This document shows positions 8,693 through 34,288 of a DNA stretch of 64,000 bases, piece by piece. Both the position numbers and the translations under genes were made by a program. Source of the stretch: a virus; the IMG/VR virus record IMGVR_UViG_3300049005_000030, positions 1 to 64,000 of that record. One strand, written 5' to 3'. The first letter of the stretch is position 1; every line of letters begins with the position of its first letter. The notes beneath the pieces are model-generated. The model saw only the letters and a program-made list of their open reading frames with translations, was not told the origin of the DNA and did no database searches.

Positions 8693-9550
8693 CTACAACC
8701 CTACCAACGCCAGCGCCGGCCACAGCAGGCCCGTCACGTCGCCGAGCACCACCACGTTGGCCGCCGTCAGCAGCGGCATCACCGCCCGGCGCTCGAACGC
8801 CTTGCCCGCGTGGAAGCGCAGCGGGTACGGCAGCAGGGCCACCTCACGCCAGCGCTGCCCGCGCACCCGCAGCGGCCACCAGAACGGCAGGCCGGCCACC
8901 GTGTGCCCGTCGCCCCAGCAGTGCACGTAACAGCCCAGCGCCACCACCGCGCCCAGCCATGCTCCGACCGGCGCGGGCACGTCGCCGAGCCAGCTGGCGG
9001 TCAGTGCGGTCAGGCCGGCGGCCGTGACGCTGACGGCCACCCAGCCGTTGGAGCGCAGCCACCGGGGCAGCGCGCGGCGCGCGGCGCGGCGCAGCCGCCC
9101 GTGGGGCTTGTCGTGGCCGAACCGGGGTGCGAGGCCGCGCACGGCCAGGGACAGGAAGACGAACAGGCACGCCAGCACGGCGACGCGTCCGCCCCAGCCG
9201 CAGGCCAGCGCGACCAGGCCGCCGAGCACGAGCGGGAACGGCCAGGTGTGGGTGATCTTGCGGTGGCCGTCACGGCACTCCGGCTTGTCGTAGCGGGTGC
9301 GCGTGCGGTGGTAGGCCCAGACGCCGAGGCTGTCCAGGCCGCGCGCGGCCGCCTCGCTCACGGGCCCGAACGCCCGGGAGACGGTGGCGCCCGGGTGGTC
9401 GAGGTCGGGCAGCAGGGCGGCCCCGGCGCACAGCGCGCCGGCCACCAGCTGGACCAGGACGCTGAGGTGGACGCCGAGCAGCGCCGGCAGCAGGTGGGCG
9501 GCGGCGGCGCCGATGACGCTGCCGTGCAGCGCGTGGCCAGGTGCCATCAT
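8693..9550 (-). CDS. membrane-bound metal-dependent hydrolase (YdjM/DUF457-like)
   Basis: MMAPGH, LLPDLDHP, HRKITHT, HCWGD motifs with TM segments. Confidence 0.85.
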   Translation of the reverse strand: MMAPGHALHGSVIGAAAAHLLPALLGVHLSVLVQLVAGALCAGAALLPDLDHPGATVSRAFGPVSEAAARGLDSLGVWAYHRTRTRYDKPECRDGHRKITHTWPFPLVLGGLVALACGWGGRVAVLACLFVFLSLAVRGLAPRFGHDKPHGRLRRAARRALPRWLRSNGWVAVSVTAAGLTALTASWLGDVPAPVGAWLGAVVALGCYVHCWGDGHTVAGLPFWWPLRVRGQRWREVALLPYPLRFHAGKAFERRAVMPLLTAANVVVLGDVTGLLWPALALVGL

Positions 9551-9568
9551 GTTGATCTCTCCCGGTTG

Positions 9569-9598
9569 TTGACTAGCCGTTAGGACACCGGCTACTCT
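9569..9598 (+). promoter_or_regulatory. repeated promoter/operator copy
   Basis: TTGACT-agccgttaggacaccggc-TACTCT, then GTTCCAC. Confidence 0.8.
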
Positions 9599-9639
9599 AC
9601 AGGAGTTCCACACGCGAGAGAATCCCACCGGAGGCTGAG

Positions 9640-9879
9640 ATGTCGGACTACGTGCAGCGACTGCTGGATAAGGACAAGGCACTGCGCAAGGGTTCGGGCG
9701 AGGTGTACCTGGCGATCTTCGGTGAGTACGACGACTCCTATCCGATGGCCGCGTTCGAGGTGAAGGCGGAAGCGATCAAGTACCGCGACAAGCAGAACGA
9801 GACGATCATCGACGCGCACGACCGCGTTCGACTCGCCACGATCCCGTTCTACCCGCGCGGCACCTACACCGCCGAGTAG
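9640..9879 (+). CDS. hypothetical protein
   Basis: 79 aa, GGAGG RBS. Confidence 0.75.
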   Translation: MSDYVQRLLDKDKALRKGSGEVYLAIFGEYDDSYPMAAFEVKAEAIKYRDKQNETIIDAHDRVRLATIPFYPRGTYTAE

Positions 9880-9953
9880 ACGACAATGACCACAGCCCGC
9901 TTTCCGGTGATCATTCACCCGGGGGGCGGGCTGTCCCATGTGAGGAGAAGTGA

Positions 9954-10226
9954 ATGGGTAAAGAGATCGCCGGCATTGGGCTGGCGCTGGCCGGGTTCAT
10001 TGGCCTGGAAGTGATCGGTTTCATGTTGGCCGGATGGCCCTTCCCCGCCATCAGCGGGTGCATTGTGGCCATGGTCTGGGGCGCGTCGATCGCTACCGTC
10101 ACCGGGAACGCCGGAGCGGAGCGGAGCGGGAACGCCACCGGGAACGAGCAGGAAGGCGACGACGGCGGCATGGTCGTGCGCTTCGACCCCGACGACCCGG
10201 AGGCGTTGATCCCGGGGCGGAGCTGA
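9954..10226 (+). CDS. small two-TM membrane protein
   Basis: GAGGAG RBS; tail overlaps CGGGAACG repeats. Confidence 0.7.
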   Translation: MGKEIAGIGLALAGFIGLEVIGFMLAGWPFPAISGCIVAMVWGASIATVTGNAGAERSGNATGNEQEGDDGGMVVRFDPDDPEALIPGRS

Positions 10227-10386
10227 GCGGGAATCGGAGCGGAGCGGTTCCCGATGCAGCGGGAACGCCACCGGGAACGAGCGAGAATCGCAGGTCAGCG
10301 GAGCGGGAACGGGAAGCGGGAAGGTCGGGGACGTGAGCGGGAACGGAACGCCGGAGTGGATCATGCTTCGGGTGGTCGCGGGAACG
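10103..10386 (+). repeat. cluster of CGGGAACG 8-mers with interspersed GCGGAGC
   Basis: perfect copies at 10103, 10127, 10139, 10260, 10272, 10304, 10338, 10379. Confidence 0.9.
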
Positions 10387-10572
10387 GAGTCCGGAGCGGT
10401 GACCGATCACGTCGACGGACGCCTGATCGATCCGGAGGACTGCCCACGGCTGCTGTTCGACCCCAAGTCGGGGTGCGTCATGAACGGCTGGGGGTTAGCC
10501 GAGCGCACCGAGCAGATGGTGGAGGTCAAAGGCCGGCCGGCGCGGGTCTGGACGGTCCGACGAGCCACCTGA
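10333..10572 (+). CDS. small hypothetical protein
   Basis: 79-aa ORF followed by a terminator; start uncertain. Confidence 0.45.
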   Translation: MSGNGTPEWIMLRVVAGTESGAVTDHVDGRLIDPEDCPRLLFDPKSGCVMNGWGLAERTEQMVEVKGRPARVWTVRRAT

Positions 10573-10586
10573 CCCCCTGAGACGAC

Positions 10587-10625
10587 CACGGCGCCCGTCC
10601 CTCCGATCGAGGGGCGGGCGCCGTG
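10587..10625. terminator. hairpin terminator
   Basis: cacggcgcccgtccct / aggggcgggcgccgtg. Confidence 0.7.
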
Positions 10626-10646
10626 TCCTGTTCACTGTCCGTTGCT

Positions 10647-10790
10647 GTGGACGGTCGGACCGTCCACTGGACGGTACGAAGGGGGCTGGGGGAAGTATTT
10701 ACGGGTAGAAGGCCCTTTCGGACCGTCCGTGGACGGTTGGTGGACGGTGGCGGTGGACGGTTGGTGGACGGTCCGACCGTCCACCGTCCA
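10647..10790. repeat. TGGACGGT 8-mer array, candidate clt (cis-acting locus of transfer)
   Basis: 9 perfect copies in both orientations directly downstream of the traB-like stop, with two mutually inverted 21-bp palindromes. Confidence 0.85.
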
Positions 10791-10791
10791 C

Positions 10792-12795
10792 TCACTCAGT
10801 GTTACCGTTGACCGCAGCGAGTCGCGGCCCGCACCACGCCCAGCGCCCGTGCTCACCCGTGCGCTTCACCTTCTTGTCCGCCTCCCAGACGGCCATCAGG
10901 TTGTAGAACCAGCTCGACTTGCGCCCGGCCGCCCGGTACAGCTCGACCGCCTTCACCCCCTGGCCGTCGGCTTCCATCAGCAGCCGCCGGACGATCTTCT
11001 CCGCGTCCTCATCGGAGCGGGAATCCCCCTCCGCCTCCGCGATGGCCTCCGCCCGGACCCGGTCGGACTCCTCCCGCTGCTCCGGGGTCATCGCTTCCCG
11101 CCGCCGCGCGATCACCTCCGCCAGGTCCACGTCCGGATCGTTCTCGCCCCACACCGTGACGTTCTCGCTCACGTCGCCCTCATCGCCTGCCACCTGGTCC
11201 TCCGCTCCGTTGGCGTTCCCGTTCCCGTTCCCGGTGGCGTTCCCGCTCGGTTCCCGCTCCGGCTCCGCCTGGTCGACGGGAACCCAGCGAACCCGCTCCG
11301 CCCACAGCGGACACACGGCGGAAAAACTCTCCTCCATTTGCGGCAACATTTTCGCCGTCTGCCCGCACCGTTCCTCGGCCACCGCGTCCCGCGTCGCATC
11401 GCTGATCCAGAAAATGCGGATCGGGGCTCGGTCTACCACCGCACCATCCTTCGCGTAGCACGTGCCCTGGCGGTTCGGGTCGATCAGATGGGCGCGCACC
11501 CCCGGCGTGCCACCAAAAACGTAGCTCTCGCCTTCGTCGTCCTCCATACGGAAACAGAACTTGTGCCGGATCTGCTGCCGAATCTGCGAAGAGCCAATCG
11601 CCTCCAACGTCGGGTATTGGGTGGCCAAAACGAATCGGACACCCAGACCGCCGCCCTTGTTGGCGATTTCCGCGAACCAGTGCACGATCAGGCCGTCGCC
11701 GGAACCCAGTAGCGTCTTGGCTTCATCGACGACGATTTGGGTGATCGGACCGTGCTTGCTGGTGTCCCACACCCGGTCACCGGTCGAGGCCATCAGCGCC
11801 GCGTTCTGGTCGAGCAGGCCGCCCGGCTCGGCGATCGCGCGCAGCACTTCCTTGGCCTCTGCGACCGTGGACACCACCAGCTCCATGCACTTGCGCCACG
11901 GGCCCAGCTCCACGCCGCCCTTGAAGTCGAAGCCGATCTGTTGCACGTCATCGGTGCAGGCGTCGCTGGCCACGATCAGGTTGATGAGCCCCGACTTGCC
12001 GCTGCGGGTGGCGCCGCCGATCAGCAGGTGGCGGACCCCGTCGCCCTTGACGTAGCGCTGGATGGTGCGCAGCTGGCCGTCGGCGCGCGGGCCCAGCACC
12101 AGCGGGTCGGTGGCCTTGCCCACGTGCGTGGGCAGCGGCCAGTTCTGGGCGGCCGCGTGCGGGTCGCGCTCGATCACCCGGAACCGGACGCTGCTGGTGG
12201 ACTTGCCGTCCTGCTCCATCTGCAACGTGCCCATGTCGGCGCCCAGCACGCTCTCCACCCGAGCGATGTTGGTCTTGCTCAGCACGTCGTCGACCTGATA
12301 GGTGCCCGGTGCCCAGGTGAATTTCCCGCTGTAGCCGGTCACGTCCATGGTCACCTCGACCGGGCGGGCGCGGTCGAAGTTGATCCGTTGCGCCACCGTG
12401 GGCCAGTCCTGCAACGTGGCCTCCATGCGCACCTGCTGACGCTTCACGTGGCTGGTCCACCACGGGATGCCGCCCACGAGGATGCCGGCGCCCAGGGACA
12501 ACCACGTCCACTGCGGCGACATCCACCCTTCGTAGGCGCACATCACCCACGAGGTGGACGCGCCCAGCACGCTGTAGGCGTACATCCGGCGCATGGGGTC
12601 GCCGATGCGGCTGCGGATCCAGGCGTAGCCAGCGAGCGCGCCCGCGCCGAGGCCGACCCCGCTCTGGACGAGGTCGGTCCCGGCCCAGTGCATCGTCCCG
12701 TCCAGCGCTGCGACACCAGCCCCCACATAGAAGGGGCCGAGCGCCAGGCGCTTGCGGCGCAGCACTTCCCAGAGGTTGATGTCGTCGTCACGCAT
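10792..12795 (-). CDS. traB: FtsK/SpoIIIE-family conjugative DNA translocase, TraB-like
   Basis: N-terminal TMs, Walker A GGATRSGKS, DFKGG, Walker B IVVDE, LATQ, C-terminal wHTH (VKAVELYRAAGRKSSWFY...GRW). Confidence 0.85.
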   Translation of the reverse strand: MRDDDINLWEVLRRKRLALGPFYVGAGVAALDGTMHWAGTDLVQSGVGLGAGALAGYAWIRSRIGDPMRRMYAYSVLGASTSWVMCAYEGWMSPQWTWLSLGAGILVGGIPWWTSHVKRQQVRMEATLQDWPTVAQRINFDRARPVEVTMDVTGYSGKFTWAPGTYQVDDVLSKTNIARVESVLGADMGTLQMEQDGKSTSSVRFRVIERDPHAAAQNWPLPTHVGKATDPLVLGPRADGQLRTIQRYVKGDGVRHLLIGGATRSGKSGLINLIVASDACTDDVQQIGFDFKGGVELGPWRKCMELVVSTVAEAKEVLRAIAEPGGLLDQNAALMASTGDRVWDTSKHGPITQIVVDEAKTLLGSGDGLIVHWFAEIANKGGGLGVRFVLATQYPTLEAIGSSQIRQQIRHKFCFRMEDDEGESYVFGGTPGVRAHLIDPNRQGTCYAKDGAVVDRAPIRIFWISDATRDAVAEERCGQTAKMLPQMEESFSAVCPLWAERVRWVPVDQAEPEREPSGNATGNGNGNANGAEDQVAGDEGDVSENVTVWGENDPDVDLAEVIARRREAMTPEQREESDRVRAEAIAEAEGDSRSDEDAEKIVRRLLMEADGQGVKAVELYRAAGRKSSWFYNLMAVWEADKKVKRTGEHGRWAWCGPRLAAVNGNTE
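11214..11256 (-). repeat. CGGGAACG repeats inside the traB linker
   Basis: CGTTCCCG at 11214, 11220, 11226, 11238. Confidence 0.85.
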
Positions 12796-12812
12796 GGTCG
12801 TTCGCGCCTTTC

Positions 12813-13802
12813 TCAGCTGGTCAGGGTCTGGTCGTCGACTACCGCGCCGGCCTTGCGGGCCTGGGCGGCCTTGATCTCGGCGGCCATGTTCTCCTTCACC
12901 GTCGCGATGAAGTTGGCGAAGTAGGCGCCGGTTTCGGTCAGCGAGTCGCTGGCCCGGGTCAGGTTCTGGATGTCGCCGGGGTCGAATCCGGCCTGGACCA
13001 GTCGCAGCTTGTAGGCGCGGACGTGTTCGGACGCCTGGGCCAGGGCCTTCTCCAGGCCGAGCGCGTCGGCCTCGATCTGGCTCAGCCTCAGTCGGCCGGT
13101 CCCGCTGGCCGCGTACTCGGCGAATCCCCGTGCGACGAGGTTGGCCGCCGTGCTGTCTCCTGCCACTGCCTTGGCTCCGATCTTGTCCATGTGCGCCCGG
13201 TTGGCGGCGACGATCTTTTCGGCCCGGCGGTCCTCCGGGGTCTTGGCGGTGCTGCGGTGCCGCCCGCTCGGCTTGCCCTTGACCGGCTTGACGATGACCT
13301 TGCCGTTGGTCTTCTTGGTGGTGCCCAGGTGGAGCGCGGGCTGCTCCGCCTTTTTCTTGTAGATCATCTTTTCGTTGGCGTGAGCCAGGATGAAGTGCTG
13401 ATTGAGCAGCTCGGCGGACTCGAACATGGTCGAGCAGCTAAAACAGGTGAAGCTGCGCCGGCCGAACCTGCGCTTGTGGATCTTGGTCGGGTCCGGGACG
13501 ATCTTGCCGCCCAGCGTCCGCTCCGGGTGGTCTTCGTCGTAGACGATCTCGTGCCCACGCCGGGCGGCTACCTCGCGATCCACCGCGTTGCGCGTCTTGC
13601 GATAGGTGCGCTTGACCTGCCCGGGGGCGGTGAACACCGCGTAGTGCGCTGTGGCCTTCGCGGTGCCCACCGCCACCCGCACCAGCAGGTGGCGGTTGCG
13701 GGCCGGCTTCTTGCGCAGCCAGCCCCGCATCCGACGGCCGACCTTCACGCCGGGCGCCTCTTCCAGCCCGTCGCCCTTGGTGGTTTTGACTACACGTCCC
13801 AT
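12813..13802 (-). CDS. basic protein with C2H2-type zinc finger, in the TraA position
   Basis: FTCFSCSTMFESAELLNQHFILAH; helical C-terminus; directly upstream of traB. Confidence 0.7.
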   Translation of the reverse strand: MGRVVKTTKGDGLEEAPGVKVGRRMRGWLRKKPARNRHLLVRVAVGTAKATAHYAVFTAPGQVKRTYRKTRNAVDREVAARRGHEIVYDEDHPERTLGGKIVPDPTKIHKRRFGRRSFTCFSCSTMFESAELLNQHFILAHANEKMIYKKKAEQPALHLGTTKKTNGKVIVKPVKGKPSGRHRSTAKTPEDRRAEKIVAANRAHMDKIGAKAVAGDSTAANLVARGFAEYAASGTGRLRLSQIEADALGLEKALAQASEHVRAYKLRLVQAGFDPGDIQNLTRASDSLTETGAYFANFIATVKENMAAEIKAAQARKAGAVVDDQTLTS

Positions 13803-13808
13803 GTCTCC

Positions 13809-14630
13809 TTACTCCTGCCCGGTCGCGTCGGCCTCTGCTGCCAGCGCCGCCTTGAAGTCGCGGACGATCTGCCGCCCGCGCCCGGTGTCCTTGGTGGCGC
13901 CGAAGTAGGGCACGGCGACCAGTCGGTGCAGATCCGCACCGGTCACGTCCGCGCTGACGTGGCGCAGGTAGGCGGCCATGGCGTCACCGATGGTCGCGTC
14001 GGCCGGCATCCAGTCGGGGCGTCCGTCGGCGATCGGCGGCTTGGGCTCGGCGGCCGGCTTCGGCTTGGCGGTCGGCGCGGTCAGCACGACCGGGCGGGCG
14101 GCGACCCGGGTCTGCTCGCGGTCGGCGCGCTCGCGCAGGCGACGCACGAACCGGAACAGCAGCTCGACCAACGCGGCCATAGCCAGGGGCGGCCAGCCGG
14201 CGATGATCCACGCGGCCTTCTGGTCGATCCAGTCGTGGCCGATGTTGGCGAACACGGTCATACCCATGCCGCCCAGCGCGATCAGGTAGGCCAGCGGATC
14301 GGTCTTCTTGGTGCGGCTGTCCGCGTAGATGATCATGGACGCGGCCAGGATCGCGCCGTCCACGCTGATCGGGAACAGCGCCGCACGCCAGTCCGGCTCG
14401 TGGTTCTTGGTGGCCCAGTCCTGCATGTGCGAGTAGGAAATGGCCGCCGCGATGCCGACCACGGTCAACGTGGCGAGCAGGGCGACGCCGATCACCAGCC
14501 GCAGCTCCCAGCGACGCACATGGCCGCCGGCCGGTGACGTCGGACGCCTGAGCCGGAACCCGCGAAGCTTCGACAGCACGCGGCGGGTTGCCCCAGGCGC
14601 GTCGTGAGCACTACGACGCGCGAACTTCAT
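13809..14630 (-). CDS. DUF2637 / Spd-like membrane protein
   Basis: ISYSHM, LFPISVDG, ANIGH, IAGWPPLA, four TMs, C-terminal HTH-like segment; GAAAGGAG RBS. Confidence 0.8.
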   Translation of the reverse strand: MKFARRSAHDAPGATRRVLSKLRGFRLRRPTSPAGGHVRRWELRLVIGVALLATLTVVGIAAAISYSHMQDWATKNHEPDWRAALFPISVDGAILAASMIIYADSRTKKTDPLAYLIALGGMGMTVFANIGHDWIDQKAAWIIAGWPPLAMAALVELLFRFVRRLRERADREQTRVAARPVVLTAPTAKPKPAAEPKPPIADGRPDWMPADATIGDAMAAYLRHVSADVTGADLHRLVAVPYFGATKDTGRGRQIVRDFKAALAAEADATGQE

Positions 14631-14929
14631 GATCCGGTCGTCTCCTTTCGGCGGGCCGATCGCCTGCGCCATGTGCTGGCCGGCACCTGTGTGCAGTTGG
14701 CCAGGACATTCCACGACGTCCCGTTGTCTCTGTTGATCTTCAGTACCGCGTCGCGCACCCCGGTCAGCGTGCTGACCATCCGGTCCAGCGTCCGCAGGTC
14801 GCCCAGCGGATCGGAACCGAGCGCGACGGCGGAACCGAGGGCATCGACCCGGTCAGCGACAGCGCGCACTTGGGCGCTGAAGTCGAGGGGTTCGGTGTCC
14901 ACGTAGTCGCTCCGTTCTGGGTTGCGCAT
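14627..14929 (-). CDS. small HTH regulator heading the tra operon
   Basis: RDNGTSWNVLANCTQVPASTWRRR; ATGA overlap with next gene. Confidence 0.6.
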   Translation of the reverse strand: MRNPERSDYVDTEPLDFSAQVRAVADRVDALGSAVALGSDPLGDLRTLDRMVSTLTGVRDAVLKINRDNGTSWNVLANCTQVPASTWRRRSARRKETTGS

Positions 14930-15096
14930 TTACACATACCCTACCCCGGTATAGATGCCGCCGTCCAACCGGATACACAACCCCACCCGAGCAGGCGACA
15001 CCCCCGTCACCGCGCGTCACCCGACCGCGTGGCGGGGCCGGCGGGAACCCGCGCGCGGCTACCCTCACCGCAGGTGATCGTGGAAAGGGGTGGCCG

Positions 15097-19922: not shown

Positions 19923-22900
19923 GTGACCGCACCCCCGATCCCCGCCCTGGAATACAAGACCCTCAGTGCCACCCTGGCCGCGCCGACCGCGCTCAACCCC
20001 AGTGACACCGGGGACGCCGTGGTGGTCGGCTACGACGACGCCAAGGGCACCGTCGACGCCGTAGTGGCCGTCACCGGCACTCGCGACGAGGTGGGCGACA
20101 TCGTCACCCCCGGCGCGTTCAAGTCGAGCATCGCTAGCCGCCACCCCAAGATGTGCCTGGGCCACGACTGGAACCGACCCATCGGCTGGCCCATCGACTA
20201 CAAGGAACTGCTGCCCGGAGACCCCGGCCTGCCGGCCGAGACCGCCGACGGCAAGCCGTGGCCTGCCGAGGCCGGCGGCCTGTGGACGCGCAACCAGTAC
20301 ATGCTCGACACCCAGGACGGCCGCGACGCCTACGCGCACGCGAAGTTCTACGGCAACAAGACGGCCTACTCCATCGGCTACGTCGTCACCAAGTCCCGCA
20401 AGGCCCTGGTCGACGGCCTGCCCACCCGGATCATCGACGAACTCGACCTGTACGAGTACGGCCCGGTGCTGCACGGAGCGCACCCGCTGGCCACCCAGCA
20501 GTCGGTGAAGACCGCCGCGCCGCAGGGTATCGAGAACAAGGTGCGGCTGGTTCACGACGCCCACTACTGGGGTCTGCCGATGGGCACCCCGATCCACCCC
20601 GGCATGAAGCCGCGCGGCGCGAAGGCGCAGAAGCTGGAACGGGCCGGGCACGCCGTGTCCGAGACCGAGGGCGCGGTGGACATCCCCAATGACAAGCTGC
20701 GGATCAAGCCGACCGCGCGGGGCAAGTCGAAGTTCAAGCCGGACGGCGCGCTACAGGCCCAGCTCTACGGCGAGATCATGTCGAAGATCGACGAGGGCGA
20801 GGCTCCCGAGGACTTCTCGGTCGACGACCCGAACGGCCTGAACAAGAAGGAAGGCGAGTACAACCCGCTGGACCTGATGGTGGCCAACGGCGTCACCCCG
20901 GCCGAGATGGAGAACACCCTCCGCAACGCCAACTGGGACGACAGCCGGGTGGGCGACTCGGCCGACAACCAGGACCAGATCAACACTTTCGTTGACGACG
21001 TGGTGGGCGTCTACCGCGAGAAGTACAACGCCGCCCTGGTCCAGCAGAACGGCAACAAGGACACCGCCACCGTCGCCGACCCCGCCGACACCGGCACAGA
21101 CTCGGCCGGTGTCGAAGGCCCCACCCCGGACGTGCCTGACACCACCGCGCCCGGAGACGCCAATGCCGGCGACACCACCGCGCCGGCCGCGCCCGAAGCG
21201 ACCGCGCCGGACCACCCGCAGGCAGCGCCGGGGTCGACTCCCCCGGCCGCGCCGGCAGCCGCGCCGGGGCAGCCGGACGCGCCCGGCATGTCCACCACGA
21301 AGCTGACCACGCTGCCCAAGCACGAGGCGGCGGCCGCCGCCGGCTCCATGTCCGACCAGGAACTGGCCGCGCACGACACCGAGATGGCCTCGCGTGCCAC
21401 CCAGCTCGGCCGCGACGGCCAGGTCAGCCCCAACCATCAGACCGTCAAGGACGAGGTCGCCCGGCGTGCGGGCAACCCGCCGCAGGCCCCGGCGGCCGGG
21501 CCCGCCGCCCCGGCCGCGAACGCGCCGGCTCCGACGACGGCCAAGCCGCCGCGCAAGCTGGCCGCCAAGCCGGCCGCCGCGATCGGCGCGGCCAAGCCCG
21601 GCAGCGTCACCCAGCACCCGACCGGCCCCGACGGCAAGCCCGACACCACCGCCGAGCCCGTGGCCAAGCAGGGCCTGGTCACCGACAAGGTGCCGCCGAA
21701 GATGGCCGACGGCCTGGCCAAGGCTGGCCTGGCCGAGCACACCGCCGAGCCCGGCAAGATGGTGCTGACCCCGCAGGGCGAGCAGCACCACCATGCCATC
21801 AACGGCACCACGCCGCCCGCGCCGAACGGCGCGCCAGGGGAACAGGCCCCTACCGCGCCGACGATGTCCACGAACAAACTGGCCTCGCTGAACAAGCAGG
21901 ACGTGGCCACAGCGGTGGGCGCGATGTCCGACCACGAGCTGGCCGGACACGACCAGGAGTTGGCCAGCCGCGCCTCCCAGCTCGGCAAGCCAGGTCAGGT
22001 CACCCCCAACCACCAAGCGGTCAAGGACGAGATCGCCCAGCGTCCCGCACCGGCCCCCGGCGGGATCCCCCCGACCGCCGCCGTGGGAGCGCCGGGGATG
22101 GCTCCGGCCGTCCCCGGCGCATCGGCCGTCCCTGGCGAGCCTGCGCACGCCAATGCCGTGGCCGCCGAGACGTTGCGCACCCTGCCGCGCGACGCCTCCG
22201 GCCGCGTCGACCTGGTCAACGCGCCCACCTCGCTGGTTCAGACCATGCGACAGGCCGGCATCGACGACAGCGGCGGCGCGGAACAAGATGAACAGTCGTT
22301 TACCCGCGCGCTGGACGCGCTGGACCAGCAGTACGGCCAGGACCCGGCCATGGCGCACGCGCTGACCACCGCACGCGGCTTCGTCACTGGCGAGCAGCCC
22401 GGCGCCCGCGTCATCCAGAAGCAGGCCGCCGCCGACGCCAAGCAGCTCCAGACCGATGAGACCCCGGTGGGCGACCGGGCCGACGCCGCGCGCGTGCTGG
22501 CCTCCGCCCTGAACAAGTCCGGCATGGCTTACATGTCCGACCCGTCCGGCAACGTCCGCGACAGCCGCCCCATCCCGAACGCCCTGTCGAAGTACGCCCA
22601 GGCCCTGGTCAGCTATCACGGCGCGCTGCCGCCCGCGAAGGTCGCCAAGCCCTCCGGCGCGCCCGACTACACCCCGACCGGCGACGCCAGCCGCCTCGGC
22701 GAGCTGACCGACAGCCAGTTGGCCGCCGAGGTTGGCCACGCGCAGGGCAAGCTGGACGAGATCACCAAGGCCGACCCCCGCCGCGAGTCCGGCCAGCACG
22801 CTGACGCCAAGCTGAAGCTGGACGCCTTCCAGGGTGAGCACAGCCGACGGCAGCAGGCCGGGGAGACGCGCCCGGACGAGACCGCTCCCGACGCAAGCGG

Positions 22901-25900
22901 AGGCACTCCTCCGAATCCGGAGGCCGTTTCGGCGACGTCCACACAGGACGGACAACCGGCCGCCGTTCCCAACGCTGCCAACGAAACCGGCATCCCCGGC
23001 ACACCCGCCGCACCGCCGGCCACCCCGCACTCCGACACTGTTCCGACCCCACAGGAAGCCGCCCAGATCACCGCCGACGAACAGGGCGACGTCCAGGACA
23101 TCGGCGACTCCGCTCAAGGCGTGGTCGAGTCCGACGACGGCGAGTTCGAGGTGGAACCCGACATCGCCGAACGCCAGGACCGCATCGCCACCCTGCTCGG
23201 CCAGTCCGATAGCGGCAACCTCGACCTGGGCAGCCAGAACGACGACCAGTTGCGCTCAACCCGAGGCGACATCGTCGGCGAGATCCAGTTGCAGCGGTAC
23301 CTGGACAACCGCAACCGCCAGCGCGCCAACCCGCAGCCCACCACACCGGAACCGCCGCACGCCCCGGAGGGCGCCGCACCGGCCCAGGGAACCGTCGACG
23401 GCCACACCCCCGGCACCCAGGCGACGCCCGGCGCGCCGGTGCCGGCCGTTCCGGCCGAATCGGGGCCGCCGCCGCAGCGCCCTGGCGTCGCGGGCGCGGC
23501 CGAGGACTTCGCCGACGCCCTGGAATCCGGCGACAGCGAGAAGATCGACGCCGCGCGGGCCCGGCTGGCGTCCAGCCTGCGCCGGTCCAAGACAGACGCC
23601 GCCTCGGTCGGCGCGATGCGCGAGCTGGCCTCCGGCGAAGGCGACCCGAGTGCGGAGGACCTGCGAGCCGGCGCCCAGACGGTGCGCACGGAGGTGCGCG
23701 AGCGGCGCAACACCCAGGCTCGCAGCCGCCGCACCGCGCGCCGCTTCGAGCGCGACCACCTGCGCAACCTGCTGCACCAGGTCGAAGGCGAGATGGACCG
23801 CCGCAACATGCGGTACGACCCGGTGGCGCCGGAGTCCGGCGACGGCGCGGCCGCCTCCGGGACGTGGCGGACCGAGCTGCGCAAGCATTCCTGGTCCAAT
23901 CTCGGCTTCCAGGAAGACCATCTGAGCGGGGCCAACTTCACCGCCATGGTCTCCACCCCGGTCGACGCCAAAAACAACCCCACCGCTGGCGCGAACTACA
24001 CCTGGAAGACCATCGACAACGATGGCAACACCATCACCCAGGGCAATGGCACCGTCGACAACGCCACCGGCGCCCGCGACGCCATCGTCACCGCGCTCAA
24101 GGCGCAGCAGGCCCTGGGCAACCTGCCCGCCGACGCCGGGGTGCCCGAACCCAGCACTCCCCAGACCAGCTCGGCGCGCACCCATGCCGACGTGGCCGCC
24201 GCCGTCAGCCAGATGCAGGAGCGGCTGAGCACGGCCGAACGCGCCGTCAACCCCATCACGGGGGCCCGCGATCCGCTGGGCAAGCGCCCGACGCTGACCC
24301 CGCCCGCGCGACCCGCGTTCACCAGCCCCGACCAGGTGCGCCAACACCTGGCGACCCTGGCCGCCGACGGGTCGCAGACCCGCCAGCTCATCGCCCGGCG
24401 AGCCGTGAACGTGCAGTGGGACAACGTGCAGCTCACCCCCGGCGGCGGCCTCATGGTCGTCACCGTGGCCGGCGAGAAGGACCCGCAGCTGTGGCACACC
24501 GGCAGTGGCCGCTCGGCCATGTCGCTGATCTACCGGGGTTCCGGCGGCGCCTCCCGCCTGTCCGCGCCGGATCTGCTGCGCGCCGGCACGCTCATGGAGT
24601 CGCTGCCCGACGACAACGGGCACACCGTCGACTTCTCCAGGTCCGACGACAACAGCGTGATGACCAGCACGAGCGACTACACCGTGGGCGACCGCAGCGG
24701 CGTCGACGCGTTCGCTCGCAACGTCATGAGCGCGCTGGTCGCCGAGAAGATCAAGAACGGCCAGTGGGGCAGCCCCGTGGTCAGGGGCATGTCCTCCGAC
24801 GTCGCTCCGTTCTCGCCGGGCAGCAACCACACCCGCGCCGGCTACGTGCAACAGAACCGCGACGCCCTGACCACAATGCTGTCCAACTCCCTGACCGGCC
24901 GCCGCGTCAAGCCCACCGGCGAGGACGCGGACACCCTCAACGTCGCCACCGCCGCCCAGACCCTGACCAACCTGGGCGCGCCCGACGCGGCCGCCGTGCT
25001 GCTGCGCCGCCGCGCCGCCGAGGTGCGCGCCACCTTCGGCGGTGAGGCCGACGCGCACGGTGCGAGCACCCTGGACAACCTGGCCGCCGGCCACCTGTCC
25101 ACCTACTCACCTGTCCTGTCCCCCGGCGAGCGGCTGCTCAGCATCACCCAGGGGGAACGCGTCACCGTGGCCGACCCCGACGGCAACGCCCGTAGCTACC
25201 GGGTGCTGTCGCCGCCGCGCACCGGCACGTTCCCCGCCTATCGCACCGCCACCGTCATGGACGAGTCGACCGGCGAGACCGGCGTGCTCACCGTCGCCAA
25301 CAATGCCGCCGAGCAGCCGCAGATGACCATCAGTCCCAGCGCGGACCTGCCGGCCATGGTGCGCATCGACCTGCACTCGCCCACCTTTACCGTGACCGGC
25401 GCGGACGAACCGGCCCCCGCCAACGCCGACGAGGTGCGCGCGAACGCCATGGCCGAGGTGGACGCCATCCCGCATGAGGTGCTGGACGCGGCCGCCGCCG
25501 CCCTGCCCTCCACCAACACCGAGACCGCCGCGCGTCGGGCTCTGCCGGCCGACCAGCGGCCGCCCCGGCGCACCAGCCCGCGCGCGGTCCCCAAGACCGC
25601 GCCGGAGGCCAAGCCGGGCACCCCGGTCGCTGGCGAGCAGCACCTGGCGGCCACCCAGGCCAGCACGCTCAGCTCGTGGGTGGGCGCCGAGCACACGCTG
25701 TCCGACTCGGCCCCTGCCGGTGGATTTGACTCGCTGGCCTCATGGCGGGAGTGGGCCAGGGAGGCCGCCAGCGACCCGAACACGCCGCCGAAGGTGCAGC
25801 AGGGGCTGACCAATGCGTTGCTCAACGACGACTACCTGGAAGCGAACGGGGCACGTCTGTCACCGGGTGGTCACATGATCGTGTTCGGAAAGAACGGACA

Positions 25901-27005
25901 CGTGGTCTACGCCCGCGCTGGCATGACCGTGTTCCCGGCCGGCGTCGGCGCGGCATCCGCCATCGGCGTGGACAAGATCCCGCCCGACACCGGTATGGCC
26001 ATCGCCGACGGGATCGAGCGCAGCTCGTGGAACGGGCAGACCATCCGCTGGGGCGATGGGTACACAGCCGCCACCTCCGACATCAAGAAGGTTATGGAAA
26101 ACCTGCCGCGCGCCAGCGACAAGGTGGGGTACCGGGATCCGATGCTGTCCCCGGCCAAGCTGGCGTTCGCCGGCCAGGTGGCCGACGCCAAGACGCCCCG
26201 CGTGGGCGACATCGAGGCGCTGGAAGCACTGGCCAGCGGATCGGCCTCGCCGAACATGGCGAGCCCGGACGCCATCGGCGGCCTGCATCTACAGGACCGG
26301 GAGAACGCCTACCGGCAGATGGCCGGTGTGCGCGCCCGGGTGTTCTACTCCACCCCGGTCAAGCGGAACGAGCCCGCCGACACCAAGGCAGGCCAGAACC
26401 TGGCGAAGCGGGTGGCCACGGAAATGCGGATCGCCCAGTCGCTCTCGCAGGTCGCTCCGCTGGACGCCTCGCGCCGGCTGAACCGGGTGGCCGACGAGAT
26501 CGACGGCCAGAAGATCACTGAGGCCAACGGCGGTTCCGAGCACAACCCGGCCGCCGAGATGCGGGCGGCGGCCCGCGCGATCGCCGATGCCTACGACGAG
26601 AACAAGGTGACGCCGTTCGGGAAGCTTCGCCGCGCCGGAAATGTCGGTCTGGTCATGCCACGCTCGGCTCCGAAGGTGACGGCCGTTGGCGCGGGTACCT
26701 ACAGCCGTGACGACCGGGCCAAGGCGCTGGGCGAGATGCTGGCCCAGGGGGTCCAGTTCACGCGCGGCGAGGACGGGGCGACCATCGCCCGGTTCGGCGA
26801 CCAGGCTGTGACGACCTCGAACACGCCGGGGCAGTTCACCACCGCGTACGCGGGCGGCAACGGCAAGCCGGTGCAGGGCGGCATCGGGCTCCAGCCGGAC
26901 GGCAGTATCACGATGCGCTGGCAGGACCGGCTCACCCGCACCACGGTTCAGGCCACGATTCCGGCGGGCGGCTGGGATTTCCAGGACTCCACAGCCGAGG
27001 AATAA
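19923..27005 (+). CDS. HK97-type prohead protease fused to about 2150 aa of unknown cargo
   Basis: DEVGDIVTPGAF, LGHDWNRPIG (His), YSIGY (Ser), ELDLYEYGPV; lies before the capsid gene. Confidence 0.85.
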   Translation: MTAPPIPALEYKTLSATLAAPTALNPSDTGDAVVVGYDDAKGTVDAVVAVTGTRDEVGDIVTPGAFKSSIASRHPKMCLGHDWNRPIGWPIDYKELLPGDPGLPAETADGKPWPAEAGGLWTRNQYMLDTQDGRDAYAHAKFYGNKTAYSIGYVVTKSRKALVDGLPTRIIDELDLYEYGPVLHGAHPLATQQSVKTAAPQGIENKVRLVHDAHYWGLPMGTPIHPGMKPRGAKAQKLERAGHAVSETEGAVDIPNDKLRIKPTARGKSKFKPDGALQAQLYGEIMSKIDEGEAPEDFSVDDPNGLNKKEGEYNPLDLMVANGVTPAEMENTLRNANWDDSRVGDSADNQDQINTFVDDVVGVYREKYNAALVQQNGNKDTATVADPADTGTDSAGVEGPTPDVPDTTAPGDANAGDTTAPAAPEATAPDHPQAAPGSTPPAAPAAAPGQPDAPGMSTTKLTTLPKHEAAAAAGSMSDQELAAHDTEMASRATQLGRDGQVSPNHQTVKDEVARRAGNPPQAPAAGPAAPAANAPAPTTAKPPRKLAAKPAAAIGAAKPGSVTQHPTGPDGKPDTTAEPVAKQGLVTDKVPPKMADGLAKAGLAEHTAEPGKMVLTPQGEQHHHAINGTTPPAPNGAPGEQAPTAPTMSTNKLASLNKQDVATAVGAMSDHELAGHDQELASRASQLGKPGQVTPNHQAVKDEIAQRPAPAPGGIPPTAAVGAPGMAPAVPGASAVPGEPAHANAVAAETLRTLPRDASGRVDLVNAPTSLVQTMRQAGIDDSGGAEQDEQSFTRALDALDQQYGQDPAMAHALTTARGFVTGEQPGARVIQKQAAADAKQLQTDETPVGDRADAARVLASALNKSGMAYMSDPSGNVRDSRPIPNALSKYAQALVSYHGALPPAKVAKPSGAPDYTPTGDASRLGELTDSQLAAEVGHAQGKLDEITKADPRRESGQHADAKLKLDAFQGEHSRRQQAGETRPDETAPDASGGTPPNPEAVSATSTQDGQPAAVPNAANETGIPGTPAAPPATPHSDTVPTPQEAAQITADEQGDVQDIGDSAQGVVESDDGEFEVEPDIAERQDRIATLLGQSDSGNLDLGSQNDDQLRSTRGDIVGEIQLQRYLDNRNRQRANPQPTTPEPPHAPEGAAPAQGTVDGHTPGTQATPGAPVPAVPAESGPPPQRPGVAGAAEDFADALESGDSEKIDAARARLASSLRRSKTDAASVGAMRELASGEGDPSAEDLRAGAQTVRTEVRERRNTQARSRRTARRFERDHLRNLLHQVEGEMDRRNMRYDPVAPESGDGAAASGTWRTELRKHSWSNLGFQEDHLSGANFTAMVSTPVDAKNNPTAGANYTWKTIDNDGNTITQGNGTVDNATGARDAIVTALKAQQALGNLPADAGVPEPSTPQTSSARTHADVAAAVSQMQERLSTAERAVNPITGARDPLGKRPTLTPPARPAFTSPDQVRQHLATLAADGSQTRQLIARRAVNVQWDNVQLTPGGGLMVVTVAGEKDPQLWHTGSGRSAMSLIYRGSGGASRLSAPDLLRAGTLMESLPDDNGHTVDFSRSDDNSVMTSTSDYTVGDRSGVDAFARNVMSALVAEKIKNGQWGSPVVRGMSSDVAPFSPGSNHTRAGYVQQNRDALTTMLSNSLTGRRVKPTGEDADTLNVATAAQTLTNLGAPDAAAVLLRRRAAEVRATFGGEADAHGASTLDNLAAGHLSTYSPVLSPGERLLSITQGERVTVADPDGNARSYRVLSPPRTGTFPAYRTATVMDESTGETGVLTVANNAAEQPQMTISPSADLPAMVRIDLHSPTFTVTGADEPAPANADEVRANAMAEVDAIPHEVLDAAAAALPSTNTETAARRALPADQRPPRRTSPRAVPKTAPEAKPGTPVAGEQHLAATQASTLSSWVGAEHTLSDSAPAGGFDSLASWREWAREAASDPNTPPKVQQGLTNALLNDDYLEANGARLSPGGHMIVFGKNGHVVYARAGMTVFPAGVGAASAIGVDKIPPDTGMAIADGIERSSWNGQTIRWGDGYTAATSDIKKVMENLPRASDKVGYRDPMLSPAKLAFAGQVADAKTPRVGDIEALEALASGSASPNMASPDAIGGLHLQDRENAYRQMAGVRARVFYSTPVKRNEPADTKAGQNLAKRVATEMRIAQSLSQVAPLDASRRLNRVADEIDGQKITEANGGSEHNPAAEMRAAARAIADAYDENKVTPFGKLRRAGNVGLVMPRSAPKVTAVGAGTYSRDDRAKALGEMLAQGVQFTRGEDGATIARFGDQAVTTSNTPGQFTTAYAGGNGKPVQGGIGLQPDGSITMRWQDRLTRTTVQATIPAGGWDFQDSTAEE

Positions 27006-31699: not shown

Positions 31700-31938
31700 G
31701 CGTGGTCGACAACCAGCACCGGAAGATCACTGGCTACCGGGACGCCCCGGACGGCGACATTCAGATGGTCAACCGCATCAAGGCCATGGAGATCTCGGTG
31801 GCCGCGCTGCACGCCGAGGTGCGCAGCACGTACGGGGCGAGCCACGTGCTCGGCCGGGCCGCCGACCAGCTCTCGCTCGGCTTCAGCGACATGGTCCGCG
31901 CGGTGATGAAGCCGCAGGATCCGTTCATCATCGACTAG
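31696..31938 (+). CDS. acb2: Acb2/Vs.4-like cyclic oligonucleotide sponge (anti-CBASS)
   Basis: DNQHRKITGYRD...MVNRIK...GFSDMVRAVMKP resembles Acb2 MDNQHKKIKGYRD...MMNRVK...IIRAIAQP as recalled. Confidence 0.8.
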   Translation: MSVVDNQHRKITGYRDAPDGDIQMVNRIKAMEISVAALHAEVRSTYGASHVLGRAADQLSLGFSDMVRAVMKPQDPFIID

Positions 31939-31948
31939 GAGGTGAGAC

Positions 31949-34288
31949 GTGGCGGTATCGGTTCGATCGTCGACAGTGGCGACCGGTGACGCTGTCGCCA
32001 CGATCACCGTTGCCAAGCCGTCCGGCACCGTGTCGGGCGACCTGCTGGTGTTGTTCCAGTTCTGCGACCCCGATGTGACCCCGGCCAACATGACCGCGAC
32101 CGGGTTCACCCAGTCCGGCACGACCAAGACGGTCACCGGCGTGTCCACGTCAAAGGTCTGGACCAAGGTGGCGGGCGGCAGCGAGCCGTCCACCTACACC
32201 TTCGGCATGGACGTCAACACCTCCGGTGTCTACATCCTCGTGTGCGTCACCGGCCAGGACGCCACCACGCCGGTCAATATCGCGCCGACCTGGGGTAGCT
32301 CCACCACCGCCGCCCAGACCAACCATGTCGCGCCGGCCATCTCCCCCACCGTGATCAACACCTTGTTGCTGTGCGGCTTCACTAGCGGTTCATCCACCAC
32401 CGCGTCCTACACGCCGGCCAGCGGCATGACCGAGCTGCAAGACGCCTGGTCGAACTTCGAATTCGCCTCGGTCGACTCCCAGGCGCTGACCGCCACCGGA
32501 ACGACCGGGACCCGCACCGCCGTGGCCACCTCCGGCGGAAACGGCTGGATCGCGGTCAGCCTCGCCATCGCGCCCAGCACCAGCGCCACCTTTACCGGCT
32601 CCCCCTCGGCCACCGGCACCGCCAGTGCGACCCTGACCGGGGCCAAGAAGGTCGTCAGCAGCCAGTCACCCGGCCTGACCGCCTCGGCCACCCCGGTCGG
32701 CGCGAAAGCCGTCACCGGCACGCGCACAGCCTCGGCCACCGCCTCGGCCACCCTGACCGGCGGCAAAACCGAGACCGCCACCCTCTCGGCCACCGCCACC
32801 GCCTCGGCCAGCCGCACCGGCGTGCACGCTGGACACGGCGAGCCCGTCGCGACCGGACTCACCCTCGGCGCGAGCGTGACCGCCGGCCGGCTGTCCACCA
32901 CCGCCGCCGCGACCGCTGTCGCCACCGCCTCAGCCAGCCTTACCGGCACGCACACCACCGCCCGCACCACCACGGCCGCCGCGACGCTCGCGGCCACCGC
33001 CGCCGTCACCCGGGCCCAGGCCGGCGCGGCCACCGCCACCGCCACCGCAGGCGCGAGCGACACCGTGATCCGGACGCAGGTCTCCGCGCCGAGCGCGGCC
33101 ACCGCAACCCTGTCGGCAGCGGCAACCGGCGGCCTCGCGTTCGTCGGCTCCCCCAGCGCGGCCGCCACCCTGTCCGCCTCGGCCGTGGCCGGCAAGGTCG
33201 CCGCCGGCAGCCCGGCCGCCGCCACCGCCACCCTGGGCGCGTCCGCGATCGGCGCGGCGCAGCGCGGCGGCACGGTCACCGCGAGCGGACTCACCCTCGG
33301 CGCGTCCGCCGTCGCGGGCCGGCTGTCCACCACCGCCGTCGCCACCGCCGTCGCGACGCTCGCGGCCGGCGCCGCCGTCATTCGGGTCCAGACCGGCGCG
33401 GCCACCGCTGTCGCGACGCTCGCGGCCGGCCGGACCGGCATCCGAGCCCAGGTCGTCACCCGGGGAGGGGTGGCCACCCTCGGCGCGTCGTCCAGTGCGA
33501 CGAAATCGACATCCGTCGTGGCAACCGCCACCGCTGTCGCCACCGCTGTCGCCGTCGGATCGAAGGCGCCGGCCGATGTCGCCGTGACGGCCGCCGCGAC
33601 GCTTTCGGCCGGCGCGGTCGGGGTCAAGCGGATCGTCGGGGCCGGCACCGCCGCCGCGACGCTTTCGGCCGGCGCGACCGGCCTGCATCGTACCGGCGTG
33701 ATCGTGGCGGCCAACTCGATCGCGGCCGCCGCCTCGGCCGCCGGCATCAAGGCCACCGGGCGCGCGGCGACCGCCGGGGCCGTGCTGGCCGCCGTCGCCA
33801 CCGTCGTCAAGGCGGTCGTGGTCACGCGCGCCGCCAACGGCGTCGCGCTCTCGGCTACGCGGGTCGTGACGGGCAAGGCCGTGCCGGTGTCGAGGACGGC
33901 CGCCGGCATCGCAGCCGGCGCCTCGGCGGTGGTACGCACGGGGCGACTTGGCGCGCCGAGCGCGGCGGCGGTAATCACGGTGACCCGGTCGACGGTCGGC
34001 CGGCGATTCGGCGTGCGCACCGCCACCGCCACCGCGTCGGCCGCCAGCGCCGTCGACCAGAAGGCCGTCGCCACACGAGTCGTCGCCGCCGCGATGGCCA
34101 CAGCCAGAGCGGCCACCGTCACGCACCGGCCGGGCGGACCGGCCACCGCGCACGCCGCGCTGACGGCCACGATGCGCACGCGCAACATCACCGCGTGGCC
34201 GCCTCAGGCCACCGAGCCCCCGCAGGTCAGCACCGGCGTGCACGCTGACAAGCCAGTGATCAACGCACGACCGGGAGCGGGCACATGA
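31949..34288 (+). CDS. Ala/Thr-rich repetitive virion protein
   Basis: globular N-terminal domain, then about 550 aa of A/T/G/V-rich repeats. Confidence 0.75.
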   Translation: MAVSVRSSTVATGDAVATITVAKPSGTVSGDLLVLFQFCDPDVTPANMTATGFTQSGTTKTVTGVSTSKVWTKVAGGSEPSTYTFGMDVNTSGVYILVCVTGQDATTPVNIAPTWGSSTTAAQTNHVAPAISPTVINTLLLCGFTSGSSTTASYTPASGMTELQDAWSNFEFASVDSQALTATGTTGTRTAVATSGGNGWIAVSLAIAPSTSATFTGSPSATGTASATLTGAKKVVSSQSPGLTASATPVGAKAVTGTRTASATASATLTGGKTETATLSATATASASRTGVHAGHGEPVATGLTLGASVTAGRLSTTAAATAVATASASLTGTHTTARTTTAAATLAATAAVTRAQAGAATATATAGASDTVIRTQVSAPSAATATLSAAATGGLAFVGSPSAAATLSASAVAGKVAAGSPAAATATLGASAIGAAQRGGTVTASGLTLGASAVAGRLSTTAVATAVATLAAGAAVIRVQTGAATAVATLAAGRTGIRAQVVTRGGVATLGASSSATKSTSVVATATAVATAVAVGSKAPADVAVTAAATLSAGAVGVKRIVGAGTAAATLSAGATGLHRTGVIVAANSIAAAASAAGIKATGRAATAGAVLAAVATVVKAVVVTRAANGVALSATRVVTGKAVPVSRTAAGIAAGASAVVRTGRLGAPSAAAVITVTRSTVGRRFGVRTATATASAASAVDQKAVATRVVAAAMATARAATVTHRPGGPATAHAALTATMRTRNITAWPPQATEPPQVSTGVHADKPVINARPGAGT

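What the first reader, a model, noticed from the sequence alone, without database searches (positions are those of the whole stretch)
10103..11256. A second 8-mer, CGGGAACG, written through coding sequence and converging on the traB end
Eight + strand copies lie at 10103-10386 and four - strand copies inside traB at 11214-11245, so the clusters point at each other across the TGGACGGT array. The longer word GCGGGAACGCCACCGGGAACG occurs three times (about 10126, 10259, and inverted about 11226-11246) and gives the same peptide SGNATGN in two unrelated proteins, which suggests selection at the DNA level. Inference: polar, KOPS-like loading or direction signals for the translocase, making a two-code transfer locus.
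Basis: partly seen in the sequence, partly recalled or inferred. Interest (0 to 1): 0.75.

Follow-up and report, generated by a model that had tools for sequence, protein, structure and literature searches.

The report
Inverted docking-word arrays flanking phage traB
The CGGGAACG copies are real and kept by selection on the DNA: they form two mirror-image arrays, one written through the floppy-linker codons of a phage-borne plasmid-type DNA pump (TraB), and are most likely docking sites for the DNA-transfer machinery rather than genome-wide direction signals.

Summary
Observation confirmed. Eight + copies lie at 10103-10386 and four - copies at 11214-11245, against 13 in the other 100 kb of this complete 101-kb tailed-phage genome. 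Only three + copies lie in a real gene, the tail of a 90-aa membrane protein. Four sit in a 136-bp spacer and one in the next gene; ORF 10254-10580 is not coding.

Nineteen of 20 related loci with enough downstream DNA (TraB 28-48% identical) show the same design. One lineage-specific word (CGGGAAC, GCGGGAR, CCGGGAC, CGGGACA, CCGGACA, CGAGAC) fills the traB linker and a second array downstream. The arrays are inverted where the word is not palindromic, and spaced 11-12 bp. Words occur in several codon phases and are better conserved than spacers.

Between the arrays lies a family-wide TGGACGGT-type core in the canonical clt position.

Best reading: the outer arms of an extended, two-fold-symmetric clt. 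KOPS-like genome-wide polarity is refuted. Local convergent polarity holds. The reader protein is unresolved: TraB's recognition helix does not co-vary with this word.

This scan has already noted similar arrays beside phage TraB genes in at least eight other genomes.

The parts
10103..10386 (+). Arm B: 8 exact and 3 one-mismatch CGGGAACG copies. Ten are on the + strand and one near copy (10246) is on the - strand. Extended consensus A-[GC]-CGGGAACG, mixed with CGGAG/CGGAGCGG units.
11139..11256 (-). Arm A: 4 exact (11214-11245) and 3 one-mismatch copies (11139, 11160, 11249) on the - strand. They are written through TraB linker codons (residues about 514-552, peptide EPSGNATGNGNGNANGAED).
   Evidence: all four GN glycines use GGG, against 27% GGG in the whole gene
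10792..12795 (-). traB-like gene, 667 aa. It has four weakly hydrophobic N-terminal segments, an FtsK/SpoIIIE motor with Walker A GKS and Walker B DE, a low-complexity linker and a C-terminal winged helix.
9954..10226 (+). Small membrane-protein gene, 90 aa. Its tail linker (TGNAGAERSGNATGNEQ) carries three copies of the word. The conserved C-terminal motif DP(D/E)DPxAxIP recurs in relatives, whose linkers are written in their own lineage word.
10227..10362 (.). Non-coding spacer holding four exact copies (10260, 10272, 10304, 10338) and three near copies.
   Evidence: GGAG lies 8 nt before the ATG at 10363 (read from the sequence)
10363..10572 (+). 69-aa gene convergent with traB. One word copy (10379) lies in its first codons. 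No homologue in the related loci.
10549..10791 (.). Central clt-like core: 10 TGGACGGT words in both orientations, starting at the traB stop codon.
10677..10708 (-). About 30 bp of core sequence, ACC(T/C)GTAxAxACTxCCCCCAGCCCCC, conserved across the family and flanked by the TGGACGGT words.
10587..10625 (.). GC-rich hairpin (17-nt arms, 94% complementary) between the convergent genes. A hairpin sits at the same place in relatives and is probably a bidirectional terminator.
   Evidence: not called by the T-run terminator scan

Best explanation
CGGGAACG is a protein-docking word selected at the DNA level. Its copies form the two outer arms of a three-part, two-fold-symmetric cis site around the 3' end of the phage's traB gene.

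Layout:
- Arm A is written through the codons of TraB's own disordered linker.
- Arm B lies 0.4-0.7 kb beyond the stop codon. It runs through the tail codons of a small membrane-protein gene and the spacer behind it.
- Between the arms is a TGGACGGT-type repeat core in the position where Streptomyces plasmids keep clt.
- Read 5'->3', both arms point at this core.

Proposed mechanism (inferred, not shown): the phased arrays are oriented platforms that assemble the transfer machinery on the two duplex arms either side of the core. The docking protein would be TraB hexamers through their six tethered winged helices, or a lineage-specific partner that hands the DNA to TraB.

The signal is local. 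It is not a genome-wide KOPS-type polarity code.
For: Shown:
- Extreme local enrichment, and the only such word clusters in the genome.
- The same architecture in 19 of 20 related loci with at least 1 kb downstream. A lineage-specific word is shared by the traB linker and a downstream array and is nearly absent elsewhere.
- The linker peptide follows the DNA word (GN, GT, ET, RD/VP). The word occurs in several codon phases within one linker.
- Arm B is non-coding in many relatives. L013 has 12 copies at 11/12-bp spacing with no ORF; L017-L024 have about 30 sites.
- Same-strand spacing peaks at 12, 11, then 20-24 and 33-35 bp. This is helical phasing, a property of duplex DNA.
- In every lineage with a non-palindromic word, arm A is mostly on the traB strand and arm B mostly on the other strand.
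- Word columns are better conserved than spacers between relatives in both arms: 87% against 65% (P 3e-6) and 99% against 80% (P 2e-6).
- TraB has the TraB-type architecture with a C-terminal winged helix.

Established knowledge:
- clt loci consist of direct roughly 8-bp repeats read by helix alpha-3 of TraB's winged helix, and can reach into the tra gene (PMC4447253, PMC3583192).
- pWTY27 clt holds two repeat kinds, both inside the TraA footprint (PMC3583192).
- A binding site inside a coding region that dictates a peptide motif is documented for SpdA2/sps (PMC4170104).
Against: - No binding data exist.
- The N-terminal half of TraB's recognition helix is identical in lineages that use different flank words. 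It tracks the conserved central word instead. TraB may therefore read only the core, leaving the arms to an unidentified protein.
- No candidate partner co-varies. The C2H2 finger of the upstream 329-aa protein differs between two lineages that share one word.
- GGGAAC-based GN-coding repeats also occur in unrelated phage genes with no TraB nearby. Slippage alone can therefore make such arrays.
- Aligning repeats inflates the apparent conservation of words.
- The element is a tailed phage without recognisable plasmid or integration functions, so 'transfer' itself is inferred.
Confidence: 0.6

Rival explanations
1. Operator arrays: the words bind a transcription regulator, as in kil-kor control of tra genes. 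This would control the convergent small genes or traB expression, not DNA loading.
For: - Arm B sits in an inter-cistronic or promoter-like spacer.
- One GCGGGAAC copy lies in the divergent promoter region 14930-15096.
- traB-traR kil-kor control is known (PMC4447253).
Against: - Arm A lies about 1.5 kb inside traB, far from any promoter.
- Ten to 30 phased copies are far more than operators need.
- No regulator gene is consistently adjacent to arm B.
- The promoter scan found nothing.
Confidence: 0.12
2. No reader: these are slippage-prone low-complexity repeats in two tolerant linkers. Gene conversion between the inverted copies homogenises them, with no sequence-specific function.
For: - Unit gain and loss between relatives.
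- A 23-nt exact identity between the arms.
- A hexamer run (GTTCCC)3.
- GN-coding GGGAAC arrays in unrelated phage genes.
Against: - The architecture persists down to 34% TraB identity while the word is replaced in both arms together.
- Non-coding arrays keep 11-12-bp phasing.
- Words are conserved above spacers.
- Orientation is consistent across lineages.
Confidence: 0.12
3. KOPS/SRS-like polarity code in the strict sense: strand-skewed words spread over the element that steer a moving translocase.
For: - An 8-bp word, a gamma-like winged helix on the pump, and convergent orientation at the locus.
Against: - Outside the locus the word is at chance frequency with no significant skew (13 copies, 9+/4-).
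- The same holds in a 107-kb relative.
Confidence: 0.03
4. Another cis site: a plasmid-type centromere (ParR/parC-like phased repeats), attP arm sites, or a packaging (pac/cos) site.
For: - Phased direct repeats in two blocks resemble parC-type centromeres and integrase or terminase arm sites (my own knowledge of these systems).
Against: - No ParA (PF13614, PF01656), ParB_N, tyrosine integrase or serine recombinase in the complete genome.
- The terminase gene is about 22 kb away round the circle.
- One arm is always inside traB.
Confidence: 0.05
5. Recombination switch: the two arms are in-frame inverted repeats in the linkers of two convergent genes. Inversion between them would move the winged helix from TraB onto the small membrane protein.
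For: - Both genes read SGNATGN from the same 21-23 nt.
- Relatives also share linker peptides between the two proteins.
Against: - No recombinase in the genome.
- The identity is short.
- Every relative that keeps the conserved C-terminal domain has it on TraB.
- The shared frame is explained by only some frames giving a harmless peptide.
Confidence: 0.03

Closest known systems
Streptomyces TraB (TraA/Tra) with its clt locus (pSVH1, pJV1, pIJ101, pWTY27; PMC4447253, PMC3583192)
   Same: - A membrane FtsK-type pump with a C-terminal winged helix.
- Clustered 7-9-bp repeats at or overlapping the 3' end of the pump gene.
- More than one repeat kind in one clt (pWTY27 DC1 and DC2).
- A Streptomyces plasmid TraB-like gene examined here also has CCCGGAC/CTGGAC-type words just after its stop codon.
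   Different: - The host element is a complete tailed phage, not a plasmid or AICE.
- TraB is at most 29% identical to plasmid TraBs, and only over the motor.
- Besides the canonical core there are two large, inverted, helically phased outer arrays.
- One of these is always written into TraB's own linker, and the word is replaced lineage by lineage.
KOPS/FtsK and SRS/SpoIIIE
   Same: - A short oriented word.
- A gamma-type winged helix on a hexameric pump (FtsK gamma 2j5p is among the fold matches).
- Words converge on a central site, as KOPS converge on dif.
   Different: - The words are confined to one 1.2-kb locus, not spread and skewed over the replicon.
- They are tandem and phased.
- Some lineages use palindromic words, which carry no polarity.
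SpdA2 and its sps palindromes on pIJ101 (PMC4170104)
   Same: - A protein-binding DNA word placed inside a coding region of a Streptomyces transfer/spread module.
- The word dictates a peptide motif (SRDD/E there; GN, GT or RD here).
   Different: - sps is a 12-bp palindrome present in 2-3 copies, conserved between plasmids, and read by the product of the gene that carries it.
ParR/parC-type centromeres (phased direct repeats in two blocks; my own knowledge)
   Same: Two blocks of helically phased short repeats that would support a cooperative protein filament or wrap.
   Different: - No partition genes in the genome.
- The blocks are inverted, and one lies inside traB.

Membership tests
Streptomyces-type TraB/clt transfer locus | Pump with FtsK/SpoIIIE motor domain (Walker A and B) | tested here: met
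   PF01580 E 2e-8. Invariant G-K-S and D-E across 25 homologues.
Streptomyces-type TraB/clt transfer locus | N-terminal membrane anchor | tested here: inconclusive
   Four Gly/Ala-rich segments (17-33, 42-58, 71-87, 99-115) reach Kyte-Doolittle means of only 1.0-1.3. No dedicated transmembrane predictor was available.
Streptomyces-type TraB/clt transfer locus | [quoted passage not shown] | tested here: met
   AF2 model with pLDDT 80 and topology a1-b-a2-a3-b-b. Foldseek matches winged helices, including FtsK gamma 2j5p (TM 0.65 on the target; all E above 0.001).
Streptomyces-type TraB/clt transfer locus | Cluster of short (about 8-bp) repeats at or next to the 3' end of the pump gene | tested here: met
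   TGGACGGT core at the stop codon, plus CGGGAACG arms.
Streptomyces-type TraB/clt transfer locus | The pump's winged helix binds the repeats, and the site is needed in cis for transfer | not testable with these tools
   Only indirect evidence: the helix co-varies with the central word, not with CGGGAACG.
Streptomyces-type TraB/clt transfer locus | Carried by a conjugative plasmid or AICE | tested here: not met
   The genome is a complete tailed phage with terminase, portal, capsid and baseplate, and no integrase, Rep-type or Par genes found.
KOPS/SRS polarity motifs | Replicon-wide over-representation with a strand skew that switches at a terminus | tested here: not met
   13 copies outside the locus (9+/4-), which is at chance level. 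The relative behaves the same way.
KOPS/SRS polarity motifs | Oriented words converging on a target site | tested here: met
   Met locally only: both arms read 5'->3' towards the core, here and in all lineages with non-palindromic words.
SpdA2/sps-type in-gene binding site | The DNA word inside a coding region is kept regardless of frame and shapes the peptide | tested here: met
   Several codon phases per linker, and the peptide follows the word. GGG is used for all GN glycines.
SpdA2/sps-type in-gene binding site | The word is read by the product of the gene that carries it | not testable with these tools
   The carrier genes are traB and a 90-aa membrane protein that has no DNA-binding domain.
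Plasmid centromere (parC/parS) | A cognate partition ATPase and centromere-binding protein are encoded | tested here: not met
   PF13614, PF01656 and PF02195 are all absent from the complete genome.

The most novel reading that the evidence does not exclude
The locus is a bipolar loader. The two inverted, phased arrays each orient one TraB hexamer on one duplex arm. The two motors then act in opposite directions from, or towards, the conserved core. An uncut circular or concatemeric phage genome would be threaded through the membrane as a loop. This would be a local counterpart of KOPS-dif or SRS steering, hard-wired into the pump's own linker codons, and would let a tailed phage spread DNA between hyphal compartments without particles.
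Probability: 0.2. Interest if true: 0.85.

Novelty: new variant of a known kind. Interest (0 to 1): 0.65.

Why it matters
How a ring-shaped TraB pump engages and orients itself on uncut double-stranded circular DNA is an open point in Streptomyces-type conjugation.

This phage family offers a natural experiment with three features:
- a canonical clt-like core;
- two mirror-image, helically phased arrays whose word changes from lineage to lineage;
- one array embedded in the pump's own linker.

This gives defined DNA substrates for binding and orientation tests: the core against the arms, and flipped against native arms. It also gives a clear case of overlapping protein and DNA codes.

It adds to evidence that roughly 100-kb tailed phages of mycelial actinomycetes (relatives annotated from Actinophytocola and Saccharothrix) carry plasmid-type DNA-transfer modules.

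Tried and rejected
The contigs of the closest TraB relatives (80-99% identity, P0001-P0004) could not be fetched, so a synonymous-site test on near relatives was not possible.
- Single-protein scans of viral and genome collections found nothing. Alignment-based scans gave the 26 loci used.
- DNA and protein searches of the plasmid and phage collections gave only remote hits to the motor domain.
- A viral-collection scan for CGGGAACG-N4-CGGGAACG was unspecific. The multi-copy hits are GN-coding repeats in genes with no TraB nearby.
- An apparent second locus near 71 kb is chance.
- Rfam gave no credible RNA family and the promoter/terminator scan gave nothing.
- Pfam and PHROGs gave no DNA-binding assignment for the neighbouring small proteins.
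- A C2H2 finger in the 329-aa protein upstream of traB was checked for co-variation with the word and showed none.
- Sequence search of solved structures with the C-terminal profile was uninformative.
- Vogelmann et al. 2011 and Sepulveda et al. 2011 are not held. The pSVH1 word GACCCGGA is therefore quoted from memory only.
- Rejected: G-quadruplex formation (the CGAGAC lineage has no G runs) and peptide-level repeat selection (multiple frames, non-coding arrays).
Full report
**What is there.** CGGGAACG occurs 19 times in the window, against 6.0 +/- 2.5 in dinucleotide shuffles. The window is the first 64 kb of a complete 101,153-bp virus record with direct terminal repeats. In the whole genome there are 25 copies, 12 of them within 1,154 bp (Poisson P about 5e-16). 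The 13 others (9+/4-) are what chance gives. An unbiased 7-mer cluster scan of the genome picks out only two such clusters: ACCGTCC (= GGACGGT) at 10.5 kb, and CGGGAAC at 9.8-10.4 and 11.2 kb. With one mismatch allowed there are 19 sites. The extended consensus is A-[GC]-CGGGAACG. Ten of 11 sites in arm B are on the + strand and 7 of 8 in arm A on the - strand.

**Gene context.** Third-position GC shows which ORFs are real:
- traB, 10792-12795 (-);
- a 90-aa membrane protein, 9954-10226 (+);
- a 69-aa gene, 10363-10572 (+).

ORF 10254-10580 is not coding. Of the eight + copies, three lie in the tail codons of the 90-aa gene, four in the 136-bp spacer and one at the start of the 69-aa gene. 'Written through coding sequence' is therefore only partly true for this arm. 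In traB the copies fall in the low-complexity linker (EPSGNATGNGNGNANGAED) between the motor and the C-terminal domain. Three of the four are one (GTTCCC)3 run. The 21-mer is present three times, and SGNATGN is read from it in both real genes. All four GN glycines in the linker use GGG, which makes up 27% of glycine codons in traB.

**The element.** The genome is a tailed phage. It encodes:
- portal, MuF, prohead protease and HK97 capsid;
- a large terminase, baseplate J, lysins and helicases.

No ParA, ParB, tyrosine integrase or serine recombinase was found. TraB has the FtsK/SpoIIIE domain and invariant Walker motifs. It has four weakly hydrophobic N-terminal segments. Its C-terminal domain folds as a winged helix (pLDDT 80) that matches winged helices including FtsK gamma. 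A DUF2637 protein and a 329-aa protein with a C2H2 finger lie upstream in the same operon.

**Relatives.** TraB has many homologues on roughly 100-kb metagenomic contigs. Two are annotated from Actinophytocola and Saccharothrix. Twenty-six related loci were fetched. In 19 of the 20 with at least 1 kb downstream, one short word is shared by the traB linker (arm A) and a downstream array (arm B). It is nearly absent from the rest of the locus. The word differs between lineages:

| Word | Where |
|---|---|
| CGGGAAC | this window, L005 |
| GCGGGAR | L001, L004 |
| CCGGGAC | L002, L013, L014 |
| CGGGACA | L018-L026 |
| CCGGACA | L017 |
| CGAGAC | L006 |
| CGGGGAA | L008 |

The linker peptide follows the word: GN, GT, RD/VP, ET. 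The word occurs in two or three codon phases within one linker. Arm B is non-coding in many loci. L013 has 12 copies at alternating 11- and 12-bp spacing, and L017-L024 have about 30 sites, some as the palindrome TGTCCCGGGACA. Pooled same-strand spacing peaks at 12 and 11 bp, then at 20-24 and 33-35 bp. This is helical phasing.

Wherever the word is not palindromic, arm A lies mostly on the traB strand and arm B mostly on the opposite strand, so both point at the region between them. In the 107-kb record behind L002, 42 of 72 copies lie in the 1.4-kb locus and the rest equal the control count.

Between relatives, word columns are better conserved than spacer columns:
- in non-coding arm B, 87% against 65% (P 3e-6);
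- in the linker, 99% against 80% (P 2e-6).

These figures come, with the caveat that repeats tend to align word on word. Whole units are gained and lost between relatives.

**The middle.** Directly after the traB stop codon every family member has the same module:
- [CG][TC]GGAC[GA][GA]T words in both orientations;
- a conserved core of about 30 bp, ACCTGTAxAxACTCCCCCAGCCCCC, between them;
- a GC hairpin after them.

This is the canonical clt position. An unrelated Streptomyces plasmid TraB-like gene examined here also has CCCGGAC/CTGGAC-type words just after its stop codon.

**Who reads CGGGAACG?** The literature held here gives three relevant facts:
- clt consists of direct roughly 8-bp repeats read by helix alpha-3 of TraB's winged helix (PMC4447253, PMC3583192);
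- a clt can reach into the tra gene and hold two repeat kinds (PMC3583192);
- a binding word can sit inside a gene and dictate a peptide motif, as in SpdA2/sps (PMC4170104).

In this family the N-terminal half of alpha-3 (R-x-S-S-W-F-Y) is identical in lineages with different flank words. The central TGGACG word stays constant with it, and changes only where the helix changes, in L006 and L008. This favours TraB reading the core. The C2H2 finger of the upstream protein does not co-vary either.

**Second carrier gene.** The small membrane protein whose tail carries arm B belongs to a conserved family. Its members end in DP(D/E)DPxAxIP, and each has a linker written in its lineage's word.

**Verdict.** The 'two-code' idea and the local convergent polarity are supported. 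Genome-wide KOPS-like behaviour is refuted. I file the arrays as the outer arms of an extended clt-type locus, a new variant of a known kind. The main rivals are operator arrays and functionless slippage repeats. Notes of this scan describe similar inverted word arrays beside phage TraB genes in at least eight other genomes. I treated these as leads, not as evidence.

Noticed in passing
window 10677-10708 (- strand): A core of about 30 bp, ACC(T/C)GTAxAxACTCCCCCAGCCCCC, sits between the TGGACGGT words. It is nearly invariant in relatives whose TraB is only 34-47% identical. Its function is unknown. There is no Rfam match and no integrase in the genome.
   Followed up: partly
window 8693-14929 and whole genome: A complete 101-kb contractile-tail phage, with no integrase or partition genes found, carries a plasmid-type module (small ORF, DUF2637, 329-aa protein, TraB) between the terminase and portal regions. 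It is a candidate for particle-free spread of phage DNA in mycelium.
   Followed up: partly
window 12813-13802 (-): The 329-aa basic protein just upstream of traB has a C2H2 zinc-finger motif (C-x2-C-x12-H-x4-H). The motif is kept in several relatives, with variable helix residues.
   Followed up: partly
window 9954-10226 (+); L001, L002, L004, L005, L013, L014: A family of small membrane proteins has a conserved C-terminal DP(D/E)DPxAxIP motif. The linker before it is written in the same lineage word as the TraB linker.
   Followed up: partly
window 15041-15048: A single GCGGGAAC copy lies in the 167-bp divergent region between the tra-module operon and the portal gene. It may be chance.
   Followed up: no
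window 19923-27005 (+): A 2360-aa ORF has a prohead serine protease domain near its N terminus. This is unusually long for a protease/scaffold gene.
   Followed up: no
window about 31700-34260: A stretch with 75% GC has a dense CCACCGC repeat (12 copies in 600 bp). No ORF passed my composition filter. It probably encodes a Gly/Pro-rich repeat protein.
   Followed up: no
L029, L031, L056, L075, L081, L107: Unrelated viral contigs carry (GGGAAC)n-type arrays at spacings that are multiples of 6 bp, with no TraB nearby. They appear to be ordinary GN-coding repeats.
   Followed up: partly
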